The position numbers are program-made. A stretch of DNA of 64,000 bases from Fimbriosthenelais zetlandica (taxonomy: Eukaryota), in NCBI GenBank assembly GCA_977030845.1, contig OZ365110.1, positions 27,342,001-27,406,000 of the forward strand, read 5' to 3'. Positions 1-39,700 of this stretch are shown here, one piece after another. The stretch's first letter is position 1. Each line of letters starts with the position of its first letter.

Positions 1-3000
1 GTAAGTACATGTATAGTAACTAAGCAGTTTTACGAATCTCATAAAATGTGTGGTCTTAATAATGAGAGATGGTCACACGCTATTAGACCTATTAAGACGC
101 CTATTTCTTACAGTGTATAAGATACACCCTGAAGCATTTGGCTTTGCCTCTGTATACCCACTGAAGTGTGAAAAAGTGGTCAGTGTGGTGGCAACATGAT
201 AGGCTGTGGCCCCTCTAGATCCCCTCATGTCTGTGCTCTGTATGATTGCCTTATATGCCCCCAGATATGGACACATTCAGCACTGGGGTCATAAGAAGTG
301 GCTAGCCTACAGCTGTAAGCCACTTTTCAATGGCTTCATTCCACTCCTCTCAGCCCCTGCATACTCCTACACCTACATTAGTACTGGACTAAAAATGTGC
401 TACCTCTTTGCGAAGGAATTCTATGTTATCCCAAATAACTGTTGTCAAACGCTATTTGATCAATAAATTTAATTGTAGCTTCCAACAGACTAGTTGAATC
501 TTCAGAATTGGTCTGTACAACAGGGAAGTTTGATTAGAAAAAAGGACCCATTTTTGCGTTTCCATGGTTTGGTTAGTGGACCATGGAAGAGCTGCTCTTT
601 GTTAGTACGTGGCGTGGCTTTTGTTTTTGTCAATAGGAGACTTAGACTGAAGTCCCCGTTAATGCCACTAAGTTCAGCATGATTGATCGCCACTGCAGGA
701 CTCTGGTGATTTGTAAATGCCAGTTTGTTAAGGGTTTGCTTTTCATGGGCCCATGGAGATATGAAAAGGCTCTGCTTCTATCTGAAAGTGCAGAAATATT
801 ACTGAGGTGTATGCCACTTTTTTTCTTAGTAGATTCAAAAGATCTGCCTTGATGAATGCTACTTGTATATATATATATATATATATATATATTCCCGGAC
901 CAGTTTGGCAAGGATATTGATGTACAGAGATAGAAAAACAACTTAATTATTAAATATTATACATCCACCTATTCACAGCGTGTTAGGTCGTATGTTAGTT
1001 GGCAGCATGCTTGTCTGACTTTTAGGGTGAGGTTATTTGTAGCCGTGACATATATTCCCATGGCTGGCGCTGCCTCACAAATCCCAAGCACTCCCTAGAG
1101 TCCACTCTGACCGTTCTCTGAATAGTAAATAATATCTGCTTGTCATAGCCACATGTTTTAACTCTTGCTCACAGAGCCTATCTTGTGGCTGAGTGTGTTT
1201 CTTTATATTAATCGTTCATCCCGAAGCAGAGACGTGTCTTTTCTTTCATTATGTGGCGAAGTCCCTACTTTACAGCAACCGCAAAGCTTGCACAGCAAAG
1301 CTTTGAATTCCGGAATGGTCAGGAAATTAAGACTTTCTTACTATTTTCCAACAAGAATTCACAGTACTTTTGTAGCCTCCGAAGCGTTAGTTTGCTTGTC
1401 AATTTACCTGGAATTGATAGAATTGCAATCAGTTCGGAGATAAGAAAATGATTTCACTGCTTGCCGGGCAGTCCTCAGTTGTATCCCCATTGTCGCCCCC
1501 AACTCCAACTGTATCTTTATGGCTGTGGACCTTTACAGCCCTGCTGATTTGGCCTCCAATTACCCCGGTCGGCAGAGAGTGAGAAGGTGTTGTGGGTCAT
1601 GAAAGGTCTGGTGCCTGGACCATCTATATTAGTGGCTACATTTCCCACCTCCACATATGCTGATAGCAATCCAGAGGGGAGCTGCTCCACTGGTTTGTGG
1701 GAGAGCATCACGATGCTATTATTGCATTGGAAGTCGTTCAGCTCGTGTCCCAGGGTGCTCGGTAAGGGATTGTAAAGATTAGTGCAGCAGATGAGATGCA
1801 TACAAGTATCTATCAAATCTATCTCAACACTCGTATTTGGCTGATTGCTGCGTGATGGACTTTGGATCTGGATCTGGCTTTGTGTGTGTATCCTAAGCTT
1901 TAAATTCAGTTATGCAATACAGTTTCTAACTCTGCAGTTAATTCCAATAACTTTGACCTGTAAGGAAGGTGTCTCTTTAATTTGAATATACATTGCATGA
2001 GAATTCGTGTATGGAATGCCATCCTGATATAATGGCCCCTATATATTTCATTTCTATTATAGAGCCCTGGGGTCGAGTTCCTGCACAAAAGTTTAGTTTT
2101 TACATTCATGTCCTATGCTAAAGCCCTTGTTAAATAATTCACATAATCTCATTGACTCGCCCTCACATCTTGAGGTGGACAGTCGCCAAATCCTATTACT
2201 GCCCCAAACACTATTTCTAGGACCCTTACACCAGTGCTTTCATGGTCGGAACGAGGGCTTTTACCAGCTCGAGGGATCCCATACTAACATAAAAAGACTG
2301 CCTCTAGTTCACTGACTCCATTTCACATTCATATCACTGGTTGACTATGTCCTTCATTTGGCTACATAGTGCAGATAACCAACTTTTAGGAGGGAGAAAA
2401 CAGCTGGTATTTCTGGCCAACTGCACATCTTTACTCCTCCTGTTTATGTTGTGATGGAGAAGAAATTTTCCTTTGGTTTATTGCCTAAATATATGGGTGA
2501 CAAGGCTACGTCTTTTGCCCATTGCTGCACTATCCCGACCGATGGAAATTCCAATGTAAACGATGCCAGTTTTCATCATGATTAACTCCCAAACAAGTAG
2601 CGAGTTCATAGTAAAGTCATCATCTCATGATGTATTCGCCTTATTAAGTCCACCCGACCTCTATACTCAATCAGCCGGCACAGAATTAATGAGGCAACAA
2701 CATCCTTATCTTTCTGTATTATACGTGAATCTTATTTATGTGTGCGACACTCCTGTTTAAGGAGTCAACCAGACCCATGTTTATAGACCCTGACCCTTGC
2801 AAGTTTGCAATTCAGTTCTATCGTGAAAGGATCTCTAGTAATTCGGCTGAACATTCGGAAATTTATATTCAATCCACAATAGATGGACTACTGTTTAAGG
2901 ATCTATATACAAATTAATTCATGTGTCCCTTTAATGTCCGCCATTGAAGGTTTGTTGAACATTGTTTCGAATGTGACATTTGATAGCTTTCATTGCCTGC

Positions 3001-36700: not shown

Positions 36701-39700
36701 GAATGTTTTTATTGCGACTTGGGAGCCTGAATGGTGAGGTATGGAAATTGGTGACGACTGGCGCTTCCTTTGCTACTTACTACTCTCGACATCTCCTATT
36801 CATCTTGGAACGTGTTCCTATTACAGTATTTAATTGTATATAAAATATTGTTTTTCGTACGTCCTGTTGGTCTTGCATCTGGATCTGCTGCCCTTACAGA
36901 TTACTACGTCCTCTCTCATCATTTTATAAACCTCTGTTCCACTGTATCATTAGCTTTAATCAAGTCTCCAATGTTCTTGCGGAATTTTCTTCTCTATCTG
37001 TCCGTGTCAGTTTGCTTAACTTGTATCTGTCTCTTTGCTCGTTTACTGTATCTTAATTATTACCTCATTTCTGCCTGTCCATGTATCTGTCTCCTTCCCT
37101 CATCACCTCCACTGATGATTGATATCAATCCCTATCCCCACCCCTCCATTTTCCTTCAAATCCCACTTCATTTGCTTCGAGTATTAATTTGTCTCAGATC
37201 CAATTATGGCCATTGAATGTTTCCATTAAAGAAGGCGCAAGAGACGATAATGATATCTGTTGGACACAGAGCCTTCCATCAAGCACTTAAAATCTAATTC
37301 GATTAATTTATTTGGATAAGTGAGGCATAGCACGCATACCATTTTAAACATGAAAATGACGAGAAACTTTGGAGAAAAAGTCAAGAGTAAAGAATCCATC
37401 ACGCCAGGTTATTCTGCTAGCCATCCTCCCGATGCTCAGGTGGGCTGATGCTTATAGCTCAGATTCATGCAGGAAGTCTAGTCTAGCATTTTTATCTGCT
37501 TCACAGTTAATATGATACATCCCAGACAATACTCTTTTAACATAATTAGTAAATGGCTGGTCCATATACTACCATTACCTCCGAGAAAGTATTGATATTC
37601 ATAGATGAGATATTTCGGATGCATATTCACTGCATGTGAGAATCCTCTTGCACCTGAAATTTGACCATGGAAAAAGTGCGTATTCGGAGGTTGCGCCTCA
37701 TGCAATTCTATCTTGTGAAACATTTGTCTTGCAAGACAAAGTGTATTAGTCATTAACATTCATCCTTCAGCCATGTAATTAATGGTAATGGCTGGCCTAC
37801 TGCCATTCATTCCCCGCGTGGAAGACTCGGGTTTTTGGAAGGCTTGCTCCCTGTCTTAAGATTTAAGCAGGCCCACTATGATTGATGGTGGCCCATCTGA
37901 CTTGGTATTCTTCCACGTCAGTTTCTTCTAATTAGTCTCTCACTCGTTACTAATTGAGTGCATGGGAAGCTGTGAGGTGTTTGCACCCAGGAGGGTTTCT
38001 CGTGTTACATTGGTCATTCATTACAAGCATTCTGTCACATTCAGTCCCTCGGGTGACAGTCCTTATATAGTGTCTTAGCTTAATTTGTTTCTGAGGGAGA
38101 TACAAGTTATGTAACACAAATTTATGCCTGCTCAGCTATTCAGCAGTTTTCAGTGCTAAAACCTTCAATATCAACCTCATCCCCATATTTACAATCCACA
38201 CTTCATTTCATCATCATATTTGTAATATTAAATCAGTGTTCAATATAAAAACCGTGTCAGACATGTTTCGAAGCAATTTCCAAAGTGATTAATTAATTAA
38301 TGAGATTTTTTTGTTCTAAGGTTGTAACAATGAGGAGGAAGACAAAAAACTAGTCAGGCTCAACAAAAATGGACACACACGATTCTATGGGTTCTGGGAA
38401 ATAATTAAGTCAATGGCGAAAACCTTGTTAACGGATATTACTTGCTTCAGCTTAATTTGACGCATATTGAATATCAATTACAAAAGTGTAAGTTTCTGTA
38501 AAATTATTTCGTTTATCTTTCAGGTTGTCGTAACGCACTCTCGGCCGTAACACAGTCACAAAGAGCCGATTCCCAATCAGGCCGCCAAGGGAAAAGTGGC
38601 TCCAAACAAAAGCAGACAACGTCCAGATCCCGAGTACAGACCAATAGCAAGAAAAAAGGCGAGAAAATTCGAGAATCGCCCGAAGATCATCTGGCAGCAA
38701 TAGGTGGAAGAGACACGTCTTTGTTTTTGTTCAGAGCATTGGGAAAAATTCTCTACTGCAAACGTAAGTATTAGGCCTATTTATCTTTCCCTTTAGTCTT
38801 TTTGGTAAAACTGGAATTTAAATTAGTAAAGTTTGAATGAAGTACAATTTATATATAAGTTGTTCAATTCTCCTAGCATTCCCCAAATTTGCCTCCAACC
38901 ACCCCACCCCCAAGATAGTACTAACTGGTTTGTGAGCCATGCCTTGAATTGTCTATAAGTGTAGTGTAAAAGAACCATTGCTGCCATCATGTACCAACAA
39001 TGTGTTTCCTACTTGTTGAGTTTACTCGCCCAGAGACAGTCTAAGAAATGCTGACTGGACGTGAAGCATCTGTTCACCCGCCCTCAAGCTCGCACATTAC
39101 TAAAGCTTGAATCAAATATTTAGACTGATCACTGCACATCGCTCACTGCACATTGTGCCGGATTCGCTGGAGAGACCCTTGGCCTTTAGATCTCCATGGC
39201 TGAATAGCCACTGCCTTGTATCTGTCTACCACGCTTCTAAGGTACATTGCACAGCCTTATCACTGCCTGAAGATAGGCTCCCCAGGGCATAACATGGATG
39301 CCCACAATTGTCTGTTAAATCCAGATCCTTTTACCCCATCAGACACACACCTTCCAACCGCCAGCCCAGGTATAATGACCAACATTTATAGATGAATCAT
39401 AATATAATGAATCATAATGAAACCGCGAATAGATGAAGCTCTATGACTGATTTCTGTATTATGTTTCCCAGCAAGTTATATGAGTATAATTTGGTAACAT
39501 TTTTATCCTCGATGAGTCAAACTTGCGTTTCTTTTGTCATAACCTTGCACAGGGATTAGACTAGCACTCTGCATCATCACGCGAAAGAGTTTAGTAAACA
39601 TGACTACTTCTGATATTGCGTGTTCCATAATGAAGATTTCAATGGAAAACTGGGAAGACAAAACGAGAATTACAATTATGAGTTCTTTAAGTCGAAGAAT

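What the first reader, a model, noticed from the sequence alone, without database searches (positions are those of the whole stretch)
1..38523. Intronless LRR receptor gene apparently nested antisense inside an intron of at least 38.5 kb of the DNA-damage checkpoint gene RAD17
Seen: the first RAD17 exon found (38524) has a phase-1 acceptor and starts mid-protein, just after the AAA+ module. Scanning 1-38523 by eye I found no PWVxKY, LAVHKKK, Walker A GPxGxGKT, VEDLP or GDIRxAINxLQF coding segment. The other seven introns are only 115-4823 nt. Known: RAD17 needs about 340 more N-terminal residues. Inference: the upstream intron spans the whole left 60% of the window and contains the complete minus-strand LRR gene (21833-23959). 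This places a probable immune or adhesion receptor inside a housekeeping checkpoint gene, with convergent transcription and possible co-regulation or interference. The window also opens with a perfect donor GTAAGT at 1-6, which may be this intron's 5' end or chance.
Basis: partly seen in the sequence, partly recalled or inferred. Interest (0 to 1): 0.68.

Follow-up and report, generated by a model that had tools for sequence, protein, structure and literature searches.

The report
LRR gene upstream of half a RAD17
The window holds only the back half of the checkpoint gene RAD17, preceded by 38.5 kb with no RAD17 coding sequence and one complete opposite-strand leucine-rich-repeat membrane protein gene. 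This is most likely an ordinary gene-within-an-intron arrangement, but the window alone cannot prove it.

Summary
Position 38524 follows a strong acceptor (…tctttcag|G) and opens, in phase 1, an exon matching the rad24/RAD17 model from position 322 of 640 and human RAD17 in PDB 7z6h. Eight GT-AG exons (38524-50563, 328 codons) give introns of 3269, 1663, 4823, 117, 202, 865 and 115 nt. Homology supports only exons 1-4; exons 5-8 rest on phase and splice sites.

No N-terminal RAD17 coding sequence was found upstream. None of 519 plus-strand ORFs (≥25 aa) and none of 293 minus-strand ORFs (≥35 aa) matched rad24, while the control exon matched every time. No open Walker A motif was found either.

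The 708-aa minus-strand ORF (21833-23959) is a complete type I LRR membrane protein without a TIR domain.

The nesting itself stays an inference, because no upstream RAD17 exon lies in the window. A truncated copy or a misassembly is not excluded. Antisense LRR genes nested in large introns are a known, common pattern (PMC3933685). GTAAGT at 1-6 is chance level (17 copies on the plus strand). Interest is low.

The parts
1..38523 (+). Sequence upstream of the first RAD17 exon in the window. It is putatively the 3' part of one RAD17 intron of at least 38.5 kb. Apart from the LRR gene it has no recognisable coding sequence.
   Evidence: 0 of 519 plus-strand and 0 of 293 minus-strand ORFs match rad24. 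Pfam on ORFs >=60 aa gave only single weak hits. Rfam and tRNA scans were empty. Self-BLAST covers only 74 bases here.
1..6 (+). GTAAGT hexamer at the window edge, a chance match rather than evidence of a donor site.
   Evidence: Present. There are 17 plus-strand and 18 minus-strand copies in the window.
21833..23959 (-). Single-exon ORF of 708 codons plus stop. It encodes a signal peptide, an LRRNT cysteine cluster, about 20 LRRs, an LRRCT, one transmembrane helix (about 650-674) and a 34-residue tail.
   Evidence: Pfam LRR_8 2.3e-70 and LRR_4 4.4e-47. PDB hits TLR3 1.7e-39 and IGFALS 1.6e-43. Hydrophobic segments, cysteine positions, 22 LRR-pattern matches and an in-frame stop 8 codons before the ATG.
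21136..21141 (-). AATAAA, a candidate poly(A) signal of the LRR gene, 692 nt after its stop codon. No poly(A) tract follows it.
38524..38763 (+). RAD17 exon 1 of the window (phase 1 in, phase 1 out). It encodes the linker and the start of the collar domain.
   Evidence: TIGR00602 positions 322-393, E 1.4e-8. 7z6h_B 654-735, E 4.8e-10, with 21 of 23 identical in the AIGG…YCKR block. Splice sites.
42033..42121 (+). RAD17 exon 2 of the window.
   Evidence: 7z6h_B 740-763, weak (E 0.53) but colinear. Splice sites and phase.
43785..43931 (+). RAD17 exon 3 of the window.
   Evidence: 7z6h_B 763-811, E 7e-11, 23 of 49 identical. TIGR00602 positions 421-470.
48755..48907 (+). RAD17 exon 4 of the window.
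   Evidence: 7z6h_B 814-863, E 3.1e-8. TIGR00602 positions 474-521.
49025..49064 (+). RAD17 exon 5 of the window (40 nt), inferred.
   Evidence: Of the 7 open GT-AG candidates of the right phase found between exons 4 and 6, this is the one taken, for its acceptor tract and GTAAGA donor. Too short for a homology search.
49267..49356 (+). RAD17 exon 6 of the window, inferred.
   Evidence: Phase-compatible GT-AG exon. No PDB or NCBIfam hit on its own.
50222..50276 (+). RAD17 exon 7 of the window, inferred.
   Evidence: Phase-compatible GT-AG exon. No hit on its own.
50392..50563 (+). RAD17 last coding exon, with an acidic tail and TAA stop at 50561-50563. AATAAA lies at 50641.
   Evidence: Phase-compatible exon. 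No hit on its own.

Best explanation
The window carries the 3' half of an intact RAD17/Rad24-family checkpoint clamp-loader gene: 8 exons and 328 codons encoding the linker, collar, A' region and acidic tail. The exons for the N-terminal AAA+ module lie beyond the left edge of the window. The acceptor at 38524 therefore closes an intron of at least 38.5 kb.

Inside that intron, on the opposite strand, sits an independent single-exon gene for a secreted-pathway type I membrane protein with about 20 leucine-rich repeats and a short cytoplasmic tail. It would be transcribed from its own promoter.

Shown: the exon structure, the absence of N-terminal RAD17 coding sequence in 1-38523, and the completeness and domain make-up of the LRR ORF.

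Inferred: that an upstream RAD17 exon exists and splices to 38524, that both genes are expressed, and any interaction between the two transcripts.
For: - The acceptor at 38524 has 15 of 20 pyrimidines before the AG, and the exon is in phase 1, so it needs one base from an upstream coding exon.
- The exon maps to rad24 model position 322 of 640 and is colinear with human RAD17 through exons 1-4: 7z6h_B 654-735, 740-763, 763-811 and 814-863.
- All 8 exons are open, phase-compatible and GT-AG, and 328 codons are intact. This argues for a gene under constraint, not a decaying fragment.
- rad24 matched only the control in all six scans: 0 of 519 plus-strand and 0 of 293 minus-strand ORFs. Those family lists were complete (4-10 families each) and held no AAA+ or RFC model.
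- There is no open Walker A motif.
- The window has no N runs, and its GC content is even at 0.37-0.45 per 2 kb.
- The LRR ORF is complete.
- The plus-strand T>A skew in 1-20800 (-0.074) and 24500-38523 (-0.085) equals that of the verified RAD17 introns (-0.086), and reverses over the LRR CDS (+0.015).
- Precedent: lrrtm1-3 are nested on the opposite strand of a large ctnna intron (PMC3933685, abstract).
Against: - No upstream RAD17 exon is in the window, so the host-exon flank that defines nesting is unseen on one side.
- The putative intron is at least 8 times longer than the largest of the other seven (4823 nt).
- The T>A skew is also present downstream of the RAD17 stop (-0.057, 11 of 13 1-kb windows), so it does not discriminate.
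- The first 13 codons of the 38524 exon line up with the human segment GCSGDIRSAINSLQ, but GDIR is not kept. This could mean a diverged copy.
- Exons 5-8 have no homology support of their own: 3 of 7 exon ORFs gave no PDB hit at E<=10, and 4 of 7 gave no NCBIfam hit.
- The sensitivity of the rad24 model to N-terminal exons could not be checked with a positive control.
Confidence: 0.65

Rival explanations
1. The RAD17 piece is a 5'-truncated or partly duplicated copy, or a gene that has been split. It would be transcribed, if at all, from a promoter or foreign exon within or upstream of the window. The LRR gene is then simply its upstream neighbour in intergenic DNA, not nested.
For: No N-terminal exon lies in 38.5 kb. 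The start of the first exon aligns with the human GCSGDIRSAINSLQ segment without conserving GDIR. The gap is at least 8 times longer than any other intron of the gene.
Against: Eight exons and 328 codons are open with canonical splice sites. The collar block is 21 of 23 identical to human. The strong phase-1 acceptor implies splicing to an upstream coding exon. A fragment without its ATPase module has no known function in this family (established knowledge of Rad24-RFC; PMC9010301 passages).
Confidence: 0.12
2. An assembly error (misjoin, collapsed or inverted segment) has separated the two halves of RAD17 and placed unrelated DNA, including the LRR gene, in front of exon 38524.
For: The sudden absence of 5' exons and the outlier size of the gap. 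Nothing in the window can exclude a join without N.
Against: There are no N runs. Composition is even and the T>A skew is the same on both sides of 38524. There are no inverted RAD17 exons on the minus strand (0 of 293). No repeat is shared between the two sides that could have caused a collapse: self-BLAST covers 841 of 64,000 bases, all of them local.
Confidence: 0.12
3. N-terminal RAD17 exons do lie within 1-38523 but were missed, because they are short, divergent or split at the conserved motifs.
For: The rad24 model detected only 3 of 7 known C-terminal exon ORFs. ORFs under 25 aa on the plus strand were not scanned (151 of 20-24 aa). Pfam had no positive control.
Against: About 320 residues in several exons, including the best-conserved AAA+ part, would all have to be missed by the full-length NCBIfam model (0 of 519). 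The same exons would also have to escape Pfam in 19366-38547 (0 of 259) and the motif regexes. At the observed per-exon rate of 3 of 7, missing seven exons has a probability of about 0.02, and the AAA+ exons should be easier to detect.
Confidence: 0.03

Closest known systems
lrrtm1-3 nested in ctnna2/1/3 introns of jawed vertebrates (PMC3933685; abstract and section 17 read)
   Same: A leucine-rich-repeat type I membrane protein gene with a compact coding region lies on the opposite strand within a large intron of an unrelated, multi-exon host gene. The paper reports that 12 of 19 nested structures lost in frog or chicken have an LRR-superfamily nested gene.
   Different: The host here is RAD17, not an alpha-catenin. 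The protein is 708 aa with about 20 repeats and is not shown to be an LRRTM: the LRRTM chain 5a5c ranks only 47th (1.4e-23). The upstream host exon is not seen.
Nested protein-coding genes of metazoans in general (PMC8467205; abstract and section 3.1 read)
   Same: An internal gene sits in a long intron of an external gene. This is a frequent arrangement (4.3-8.7% of protein-coding genes in seven vertebrates), attributed there to insertion into large introns.
   Different: Neither expression nor an insertion mechanism is shown here. No poly(A) tract or other mark of retroposition follows the LRR gene.
RAD17 (human) / Rad24 (yeast), the large subunit of the 9-1-1 checkpoint clamp loader
   Same: Exons 1-4 are colinear with human RAD17 in 7z6h_B 654-863, and TIGR00602 is matched at positions 322-521. 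The domain order of linker, collar and A' is as described for Rad24 (PMC9010301 passages).
   Different: Only the C-terminal half is present. The AAA+ module was not found in the window. The residues that align with human GDIR are RNAL.
Extracellular LRR proteins with solved structures: TLR3, IGFALS, LRIG1, LRRC32/GARP, LRRC33/NRROS
   Same: The architecture is LRRNT, LRRs, LRRCT and a transmembrane helix. PDB E-values are 1.7e-39 (TLR3, mainly residues 453-664), 1.6e-43 (IGFALS, for residues 31-452) and 7.1e-28 (LRRC32). The nearest Atlas clusters include LRRC32-like (713 aa) and NRROS (690 aa) at a feature score of 0.97.
   Different: No single family stands out, and the best hit changes with the part of the protein queried. 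The protein has no TIR domain. No orthology test was possible.

Membership tests
RAD17/Rad24 checkpoint clamp-loader large subunit | C-terminal collar and A' region homologous to RAD17/Rad24 | tested here: met
   TIGR00602 positions 322-393, 421-470 and 474-521 are matched by three exon ORFs. Human RAD17 in 7z6h_B is matched colinearly by four exon ORFs. The whole-protein curated cut-off (482.55 bits) could not be tested, because the joined model was not searched.
RAD17/Rad24 checkpoint clamp-loader large subunit | N-terminal AAA+ module with Walker A and Walker B motifs | tested here: inconclusive
   Not present anywhere in 1-38523 (0 of 519 plus-strand and 0 of 293 minus-strand ORFs; regexes). 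The gene probably continues beyond the window, so its absence from the window does not show its absence from the gene.
   Human GCSGDIRSAINSLQ aligns without a gap to GCRNALSAVTQSQ at the start of exon 38524 (low posterior values). Either the motif is encoded upstream and this similarity is chance, or it is degenerate here.
Nested (intronic) protein-coding gene | The internal gene lies wholly between two exons of the host gene | not testable with these tools
   The downstream host exon is seen at 38524. The upstream host exon is outside the window, and no eukaryotic genome collection or RNA data were available.
Nested (intronic) protein-coding gene | The internal gene is a complete, independent coding unit | tested here: met
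   A 708-codon ORF with an ATG, an in-frame stop 8 codons upstream, a signal peptide, a stop codon and AATAAA 692 nt downstream. Expression was not tested.
Extracellular LRR type I membrane proteins (LRRNT-LRR-LRRCT-TM) | Tandem LRRs flanked by cysteine-capped LRRNT and LRRCT, with a signal peptide and one transmembrane helix | tested here: met
   LRR_8 2.3e-70 in 10 stretches. Cysteines at 36, 40, 42, 51 and at 589, 591, 618, 639. Hydrophobic segments at 10-33 and 649-674. TIGR00864 and TLR3 align over the LRRCT.
Toll-like receptors | Cytoplasmic TIR domain after the transmembrane helix | tested here: not met
   Only 34 residues follow the transmembrane helix, and no TIR family appears among the Pfam hits of the protein. 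No TIR hit appeared among the minus-strand ORFs >=60 aa downstream; ORFs overlapping the CDS were left out of that scan.
LRRC32 (GARP) / LRRC33 (NRROS) latent-TGF-beta milieu molecules | Orthology, and the two ectodomain cysteines that bond the TGF-beta prodomain (feature recalled) | not tested
   Only similarity in size and architecture (Atlas clusters of 713 and 690 aa, score 0.97) and a mid-rank PDB match (7.1e-28). Unpaired cysteines lie at 136 and 223, but no residue-level alignment to LRRC32 was obtained.

The most novel reading that the evidence does not exclude
In this lineage RAD17 has been broken in two. The collar/A'/tail half (38524-50563) would be kept as an intact, spliced unit fed by a non-RAD17 upstream exon or its own promoter. 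The helix that aligns with the human GDIR motif would have decayed to RNAL, and an LRR receptor gene would occupy the space between the halves. That would be a fission or remodelling of a core checkpoint clamp loader rather than a simple long intron.
Probability: 0.05. Interest if true: 0.6.

Novelty: new member of a known kind. Interest (0 to 1): 0.15.

Why it matters
If the nesting is real, it adds one more example to a well-described class: opposite-strand, compact LRR genes inside large introns of unrelated host genes. It would be a useful annotation note, since gene finders can split RAD17 at a 38-kb intron or merge the two genes.

It does not open a new question. Transcriptional interference between host and nested genes has been studied genome-wide, and this locus offers no special handle on it.

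The only point that could raise its value is the possibility that this RAD17 copy lacks its ATPase half or has a degenerate lid motif. The flanking sequence would settle that at once.

Tried and rejected
I did not name a stop=X code for this. Instead I sent stop-free ORFs as alignment members.
- Pfam finds nothing in any of the RAD17 C-terminal exon ORFs, so Pfam could not be controlled. NCBIfam TIGR00602 was used as the main probe.
- A codon-usage log-odds scan, trained on the LRR CDS and the RAD17 exons against the RAD17 introns, had no power. Leave-one-out scores of the true exons were -0.3 to 24.5, and background segments scored up to 26.4. It was dropped.
- Strand skew as a sign of transcription: the T>A skew is the same upstream, inside and downstream of RAD17, so it is uninformative.
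- Retroposition of the LRR gene: no poly(A) tract follows the AATAAA, so there is no support.
- TLR pseudogene with a lost TIR domain: no TIR-like ORF downstream.
- Transposon content: no RT, transposase or other domain in 139 plus-strand and 110 minus-strand ORFs >=60 aa. The best single hit was E 3.9e-4. Rfam gave 0 hits and the tRNA scan 0.
It would not have changed the verdict.
- Literature: 0 papers hold RAD17 + 'nested gene' + intron, and 0 hold rad17 + 'leucine-rich repeat' + nested. One unrelated paper holds rad17 + 'genomic structure' + exons + introns (listing only).
- Table S3 of PMC3933685, its list of nested pairs, could not be seen because supplements are closed. It might list or exclude RAD17.

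
Full report
**What the window is.** The window is 64,000 bases of eukaryotic DNA with 37-45% GC per 2 kb and no N. CpG observed/expected is about 0.2-0.6 around the LRR gene. I do not take it for human. 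The best-conserved RAD17 exons are only 23 of 49 and 24 of 51 identical to the human protein.

**RAD17 part.** Stop-to-stop ORFs on the plus strand right of 38000 and the DNA around them give eight phase-compatible GT-AG exons:
- 38524-38763
- 42033-42121
- 43785-43931
- 48755-48907
- 49025-49064
- 49267-49356
- 50222-50276
- 50392-50563 (TAA stop at 50561-50563, AATAAA at 50641)

The coding bases number 983, plus one from an upstream exon, giving 328 codons.

The joined protein was not assembled or searched, so the whole-protein cut-off of the rad24 model could not be applied.
- NCBIfam TIGR00602 'rad24' (640 positions) is matched by 3 of 7 exon ORFs: positions 322-393 (E 1.4e-8), 421-470 (0.015) and 474-521 (0.0078).
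- Pfam matched none of them.
- Human RAD17 in the fusion chain 7z6h_B is matched colinearly by 4 of 7: 654-735 (4.8e-10), 740-763 (0.53), 763-811 (7e-11) and 814-863 (3.1e-8).
- The ORFs holding exons 6, 7 and 8 gave no PDB hit at E<=10. The 13-codon exon 5 was not searchable.

Exons 5-8 therefore rest on splice sites, phase and length: 117 residues for the 119 model positions left after 521. They do not rest on a homology result.

According to passages of PMC9010301, Rad24 consists of an AAA+ module, a long linker, a collar domain, an A' domain and a C-terminal tail. The window thus holds everything from the linker onward.

**Is the N-terminal half in 1-38523?** The family-search tool refuses translations with stops. 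I therefore listed all stop-to-stop ORFs and sent them as members of alignments, each with the 38502-38771 ORF as the first row to act as an internal control.
- Plus strand, >=25 aa, starting at or before 38523: 519 ORFs in four sets. Against NCBIfam at E<=0.5, rad24 was matched by the control in 4 of 4 runs and by 0 of 519 test ORFs.
- The family lists were short (4-10 families, each with one member, best E 0.0041), so they were complete. They contained no AAA+, RFC or clamp-loader model.
- Minus strand, >=35 aa, with the LRR ORF itself left out: 0 of 293.
- Pfam on the two plus-strand sets covering 19366-38547: 0 of 259 matched a Rad17, AAA or RFC family at E<=0.1. Pfam has no positive control here.

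Limits of the test:
- The rad24 model saw only 3 of 7 known exons in the less conserved half.
- Its sensitivity to N-terminal exons could not be controlled.
- 151 plus-strand ORFs of 20-24 aa and all shorter ones were not scanned.

Even so, missing every one of the several exons needed for about 320 residues, including the P-loop, is unlikely.

**What else is in the 38.5 kb.**
- Pfam on ORFs >=60 aa over the whole window gave only single weak matches: best E 3.9e-4 on the plus strand and 0.0027 on the minus strand. This covered 139 of 145 plus-strand and 110 of 115 minus-strand ORFs; the 6 and 5 overlapping the LRR ORF were dropped. No transposon protein and no other gene appeared.
- Rfam at gathering thresholds gave 0 matches and the tRNA scan gave 0.
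- Self-BLAST covers 841 of 64,000 bases. Nearly all of that is one 87-bp-period array at 48053-48636 and a 105-bp duplication at 49379-49600.
- The region is therefore unique, non-coding DNA around one gene.

**The LRR gene.** The ORF at 21833-23959 (minus strand) encodes 708 residues. Its features:
- Pfam LRR_8 2.3e-70 and LRR_4 4.4e-47.
- A hydrophobic N-terminus (10-33) and an LRRNT-type cysteine cluster (36, 40, 42, 51).
- 22 matches to an LxxLxLxxNxL-type pattern, or about 20 repeats.
- LRRCT cysteines (589, 591, 618, 639), a transmembrane segment (about 650-674) and a 34-residue tail.
- 12 NxS/T sites.
- An in-frame stop 8 codons before the ATG, a TATAAAT about 320 nt upstream, and AATAAA 692 nt after the stop.
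- No poly(A) tract follows, so there is no sign of recent retroposition.

Solved relatives depend on the part queried: TLR3 (1.7e-39) mainly through residues 453-664, and IGFALS (1.6e-43) for residues 31-452. LRIG1, TLR7/8/13, LGR4/5, LRRC32 and LRRC33 rank behind. The language-model Atlas puts it next to unnamed LRRCT clusters, an LRRC32-like cluster (713 aa) and NRROS clusters (690 and 676 aa), all at 0.97. There is no TIR domain. I file it as an extracellular LRR type I membrane protein of unresolved family. 'Immune or adhesion receptor' is possible but not shown.

**Nesting.** In favour:
- The strong phase-1 acceptor needs an upstream coding exon.
- The RAD17 half is intact.
- There is no assembly gap, the composition is even, and the T>A skew is identical in the left region (-0.074 and -0.085) and in the verified introns (-0.086), with a reversal over the LRR CDS.

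Against, or neutral:
- The same skew continues downstream of the stop codon (-0.057), so it does not prove transcription.
- The gap is at least 8 times longer than the gene's next-largest intron.
- The upstream exon is simply not in view.

I put 0.65 on a true long intron with a nested gene. I put 0.12 on a truncated, duplicated or split RAD17 with the LRR gene as an upstream neighbour, 0.12 on an assembly error, and 0.03 on missed exons. The window-edge GTAAGT is one of 17 plus-strand copies and counts for nothing.

**An unexplained detail.** The first 13 codons of exon 38524 (…GCRNALSAVTQSQ) align without a gap to human GCSGDIRSAINSLQ (posterior values 6-8), and the rad24 profile alignment begins at the S of SAVTQSQ. 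There are two readings:
- The conserved GDIR-type motif is encoded by the unseen upstream exon and this resemblance is chance. The segment is S/A/Q-rich.
- The motif is here but degenerate (RNAL).

PMC9010301 (passages) states only that Rad24 lacks the SRC arginine-finger motif. Orthologue alignments would decide the question.

**Comparison with what is known.** Nested genes are common. According to PMC8467205 (abstract and section 3.1 read), 4.3-8.7% of protein-coding genes in seven vertebrates are nested, and most arise by insertion into large introns. PMC3933685 (abstract and section 17 read) describes lrrtm1-3 on the opposite strand of a large ctnna intron. It notes that in 12 of 19 nested structures lost in frog or chicken the nested gene is an LRR-superfamily member.

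No paper in the library combines RAD17 with 'nested gene' and intron, or with 'leucine-rich repeat' and nested. The supplementary list of nested pairs in PMC3933685 could not be opened.

The pair would thus be a new member of a known kind, of annotation value only.

**What stayed unchecked.**
- The upstream sequence, synteny, orthologue sets and expression.
- The joined RAD17 model, left out by instruction.

Noticed in passing
38524-38562 (+): The first 13 codons of the first RAD17 exon (GCRNALSAVTQSQ) line up without a gap with human GCSGDIRSAINSLQ, but GDIR is not conserved. Either the motif lies in the unseen upstream exon, or this copy has a degenerate lid motif.
   Followed up: partly
48053-48636 (+), inside RAD17 intron 43932-48754: A tandem array with an 87-bp period and 6.7 copies, 78% matching, ending about 120 nt before exon 48755. 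It gives a long spurious ORF (48018-48455).
   Followed up: no
49379-49600 (+), intron after exon 49267-49356: A 105-bp unit duplicated about twice at 81-90% identity, starting 23 nt after the donor.
   Followed up: no
3672-3749: A (CT)39 microsatellite flanked by CT/GA-rich sequence. It gives long low-complexity ORFs on both strands.
   Followed up: no
whole window, especially 50900-64000: The plus strand has T>A in 52 of 59 1-kb windows, including the 13 kb downstream of the RAD17 stop codon (mean -0.057, 11 of 13), where no gene was recognised. There may be an unrecognised plus-strand transcription unit or a regional bias.
   Followed up: partly
1-64000: Very little internal repetition (841 of 64,000 bases in self-BLAST hits) and no transposon protein domain in ORFs >=60 aa, despite introns and spacers of tens of kb.
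   Followed up: partly
21833-23959 (-), residues 136 and 223: Two cysteines in the LRR solenoid lie outside the LRRNT and LRRCT caps. LRRC32 and LRRC33 use two such cysteines to bond the TGF-beta prodomain (recalled), but no residue-level alignment was made.
   Followed up: no
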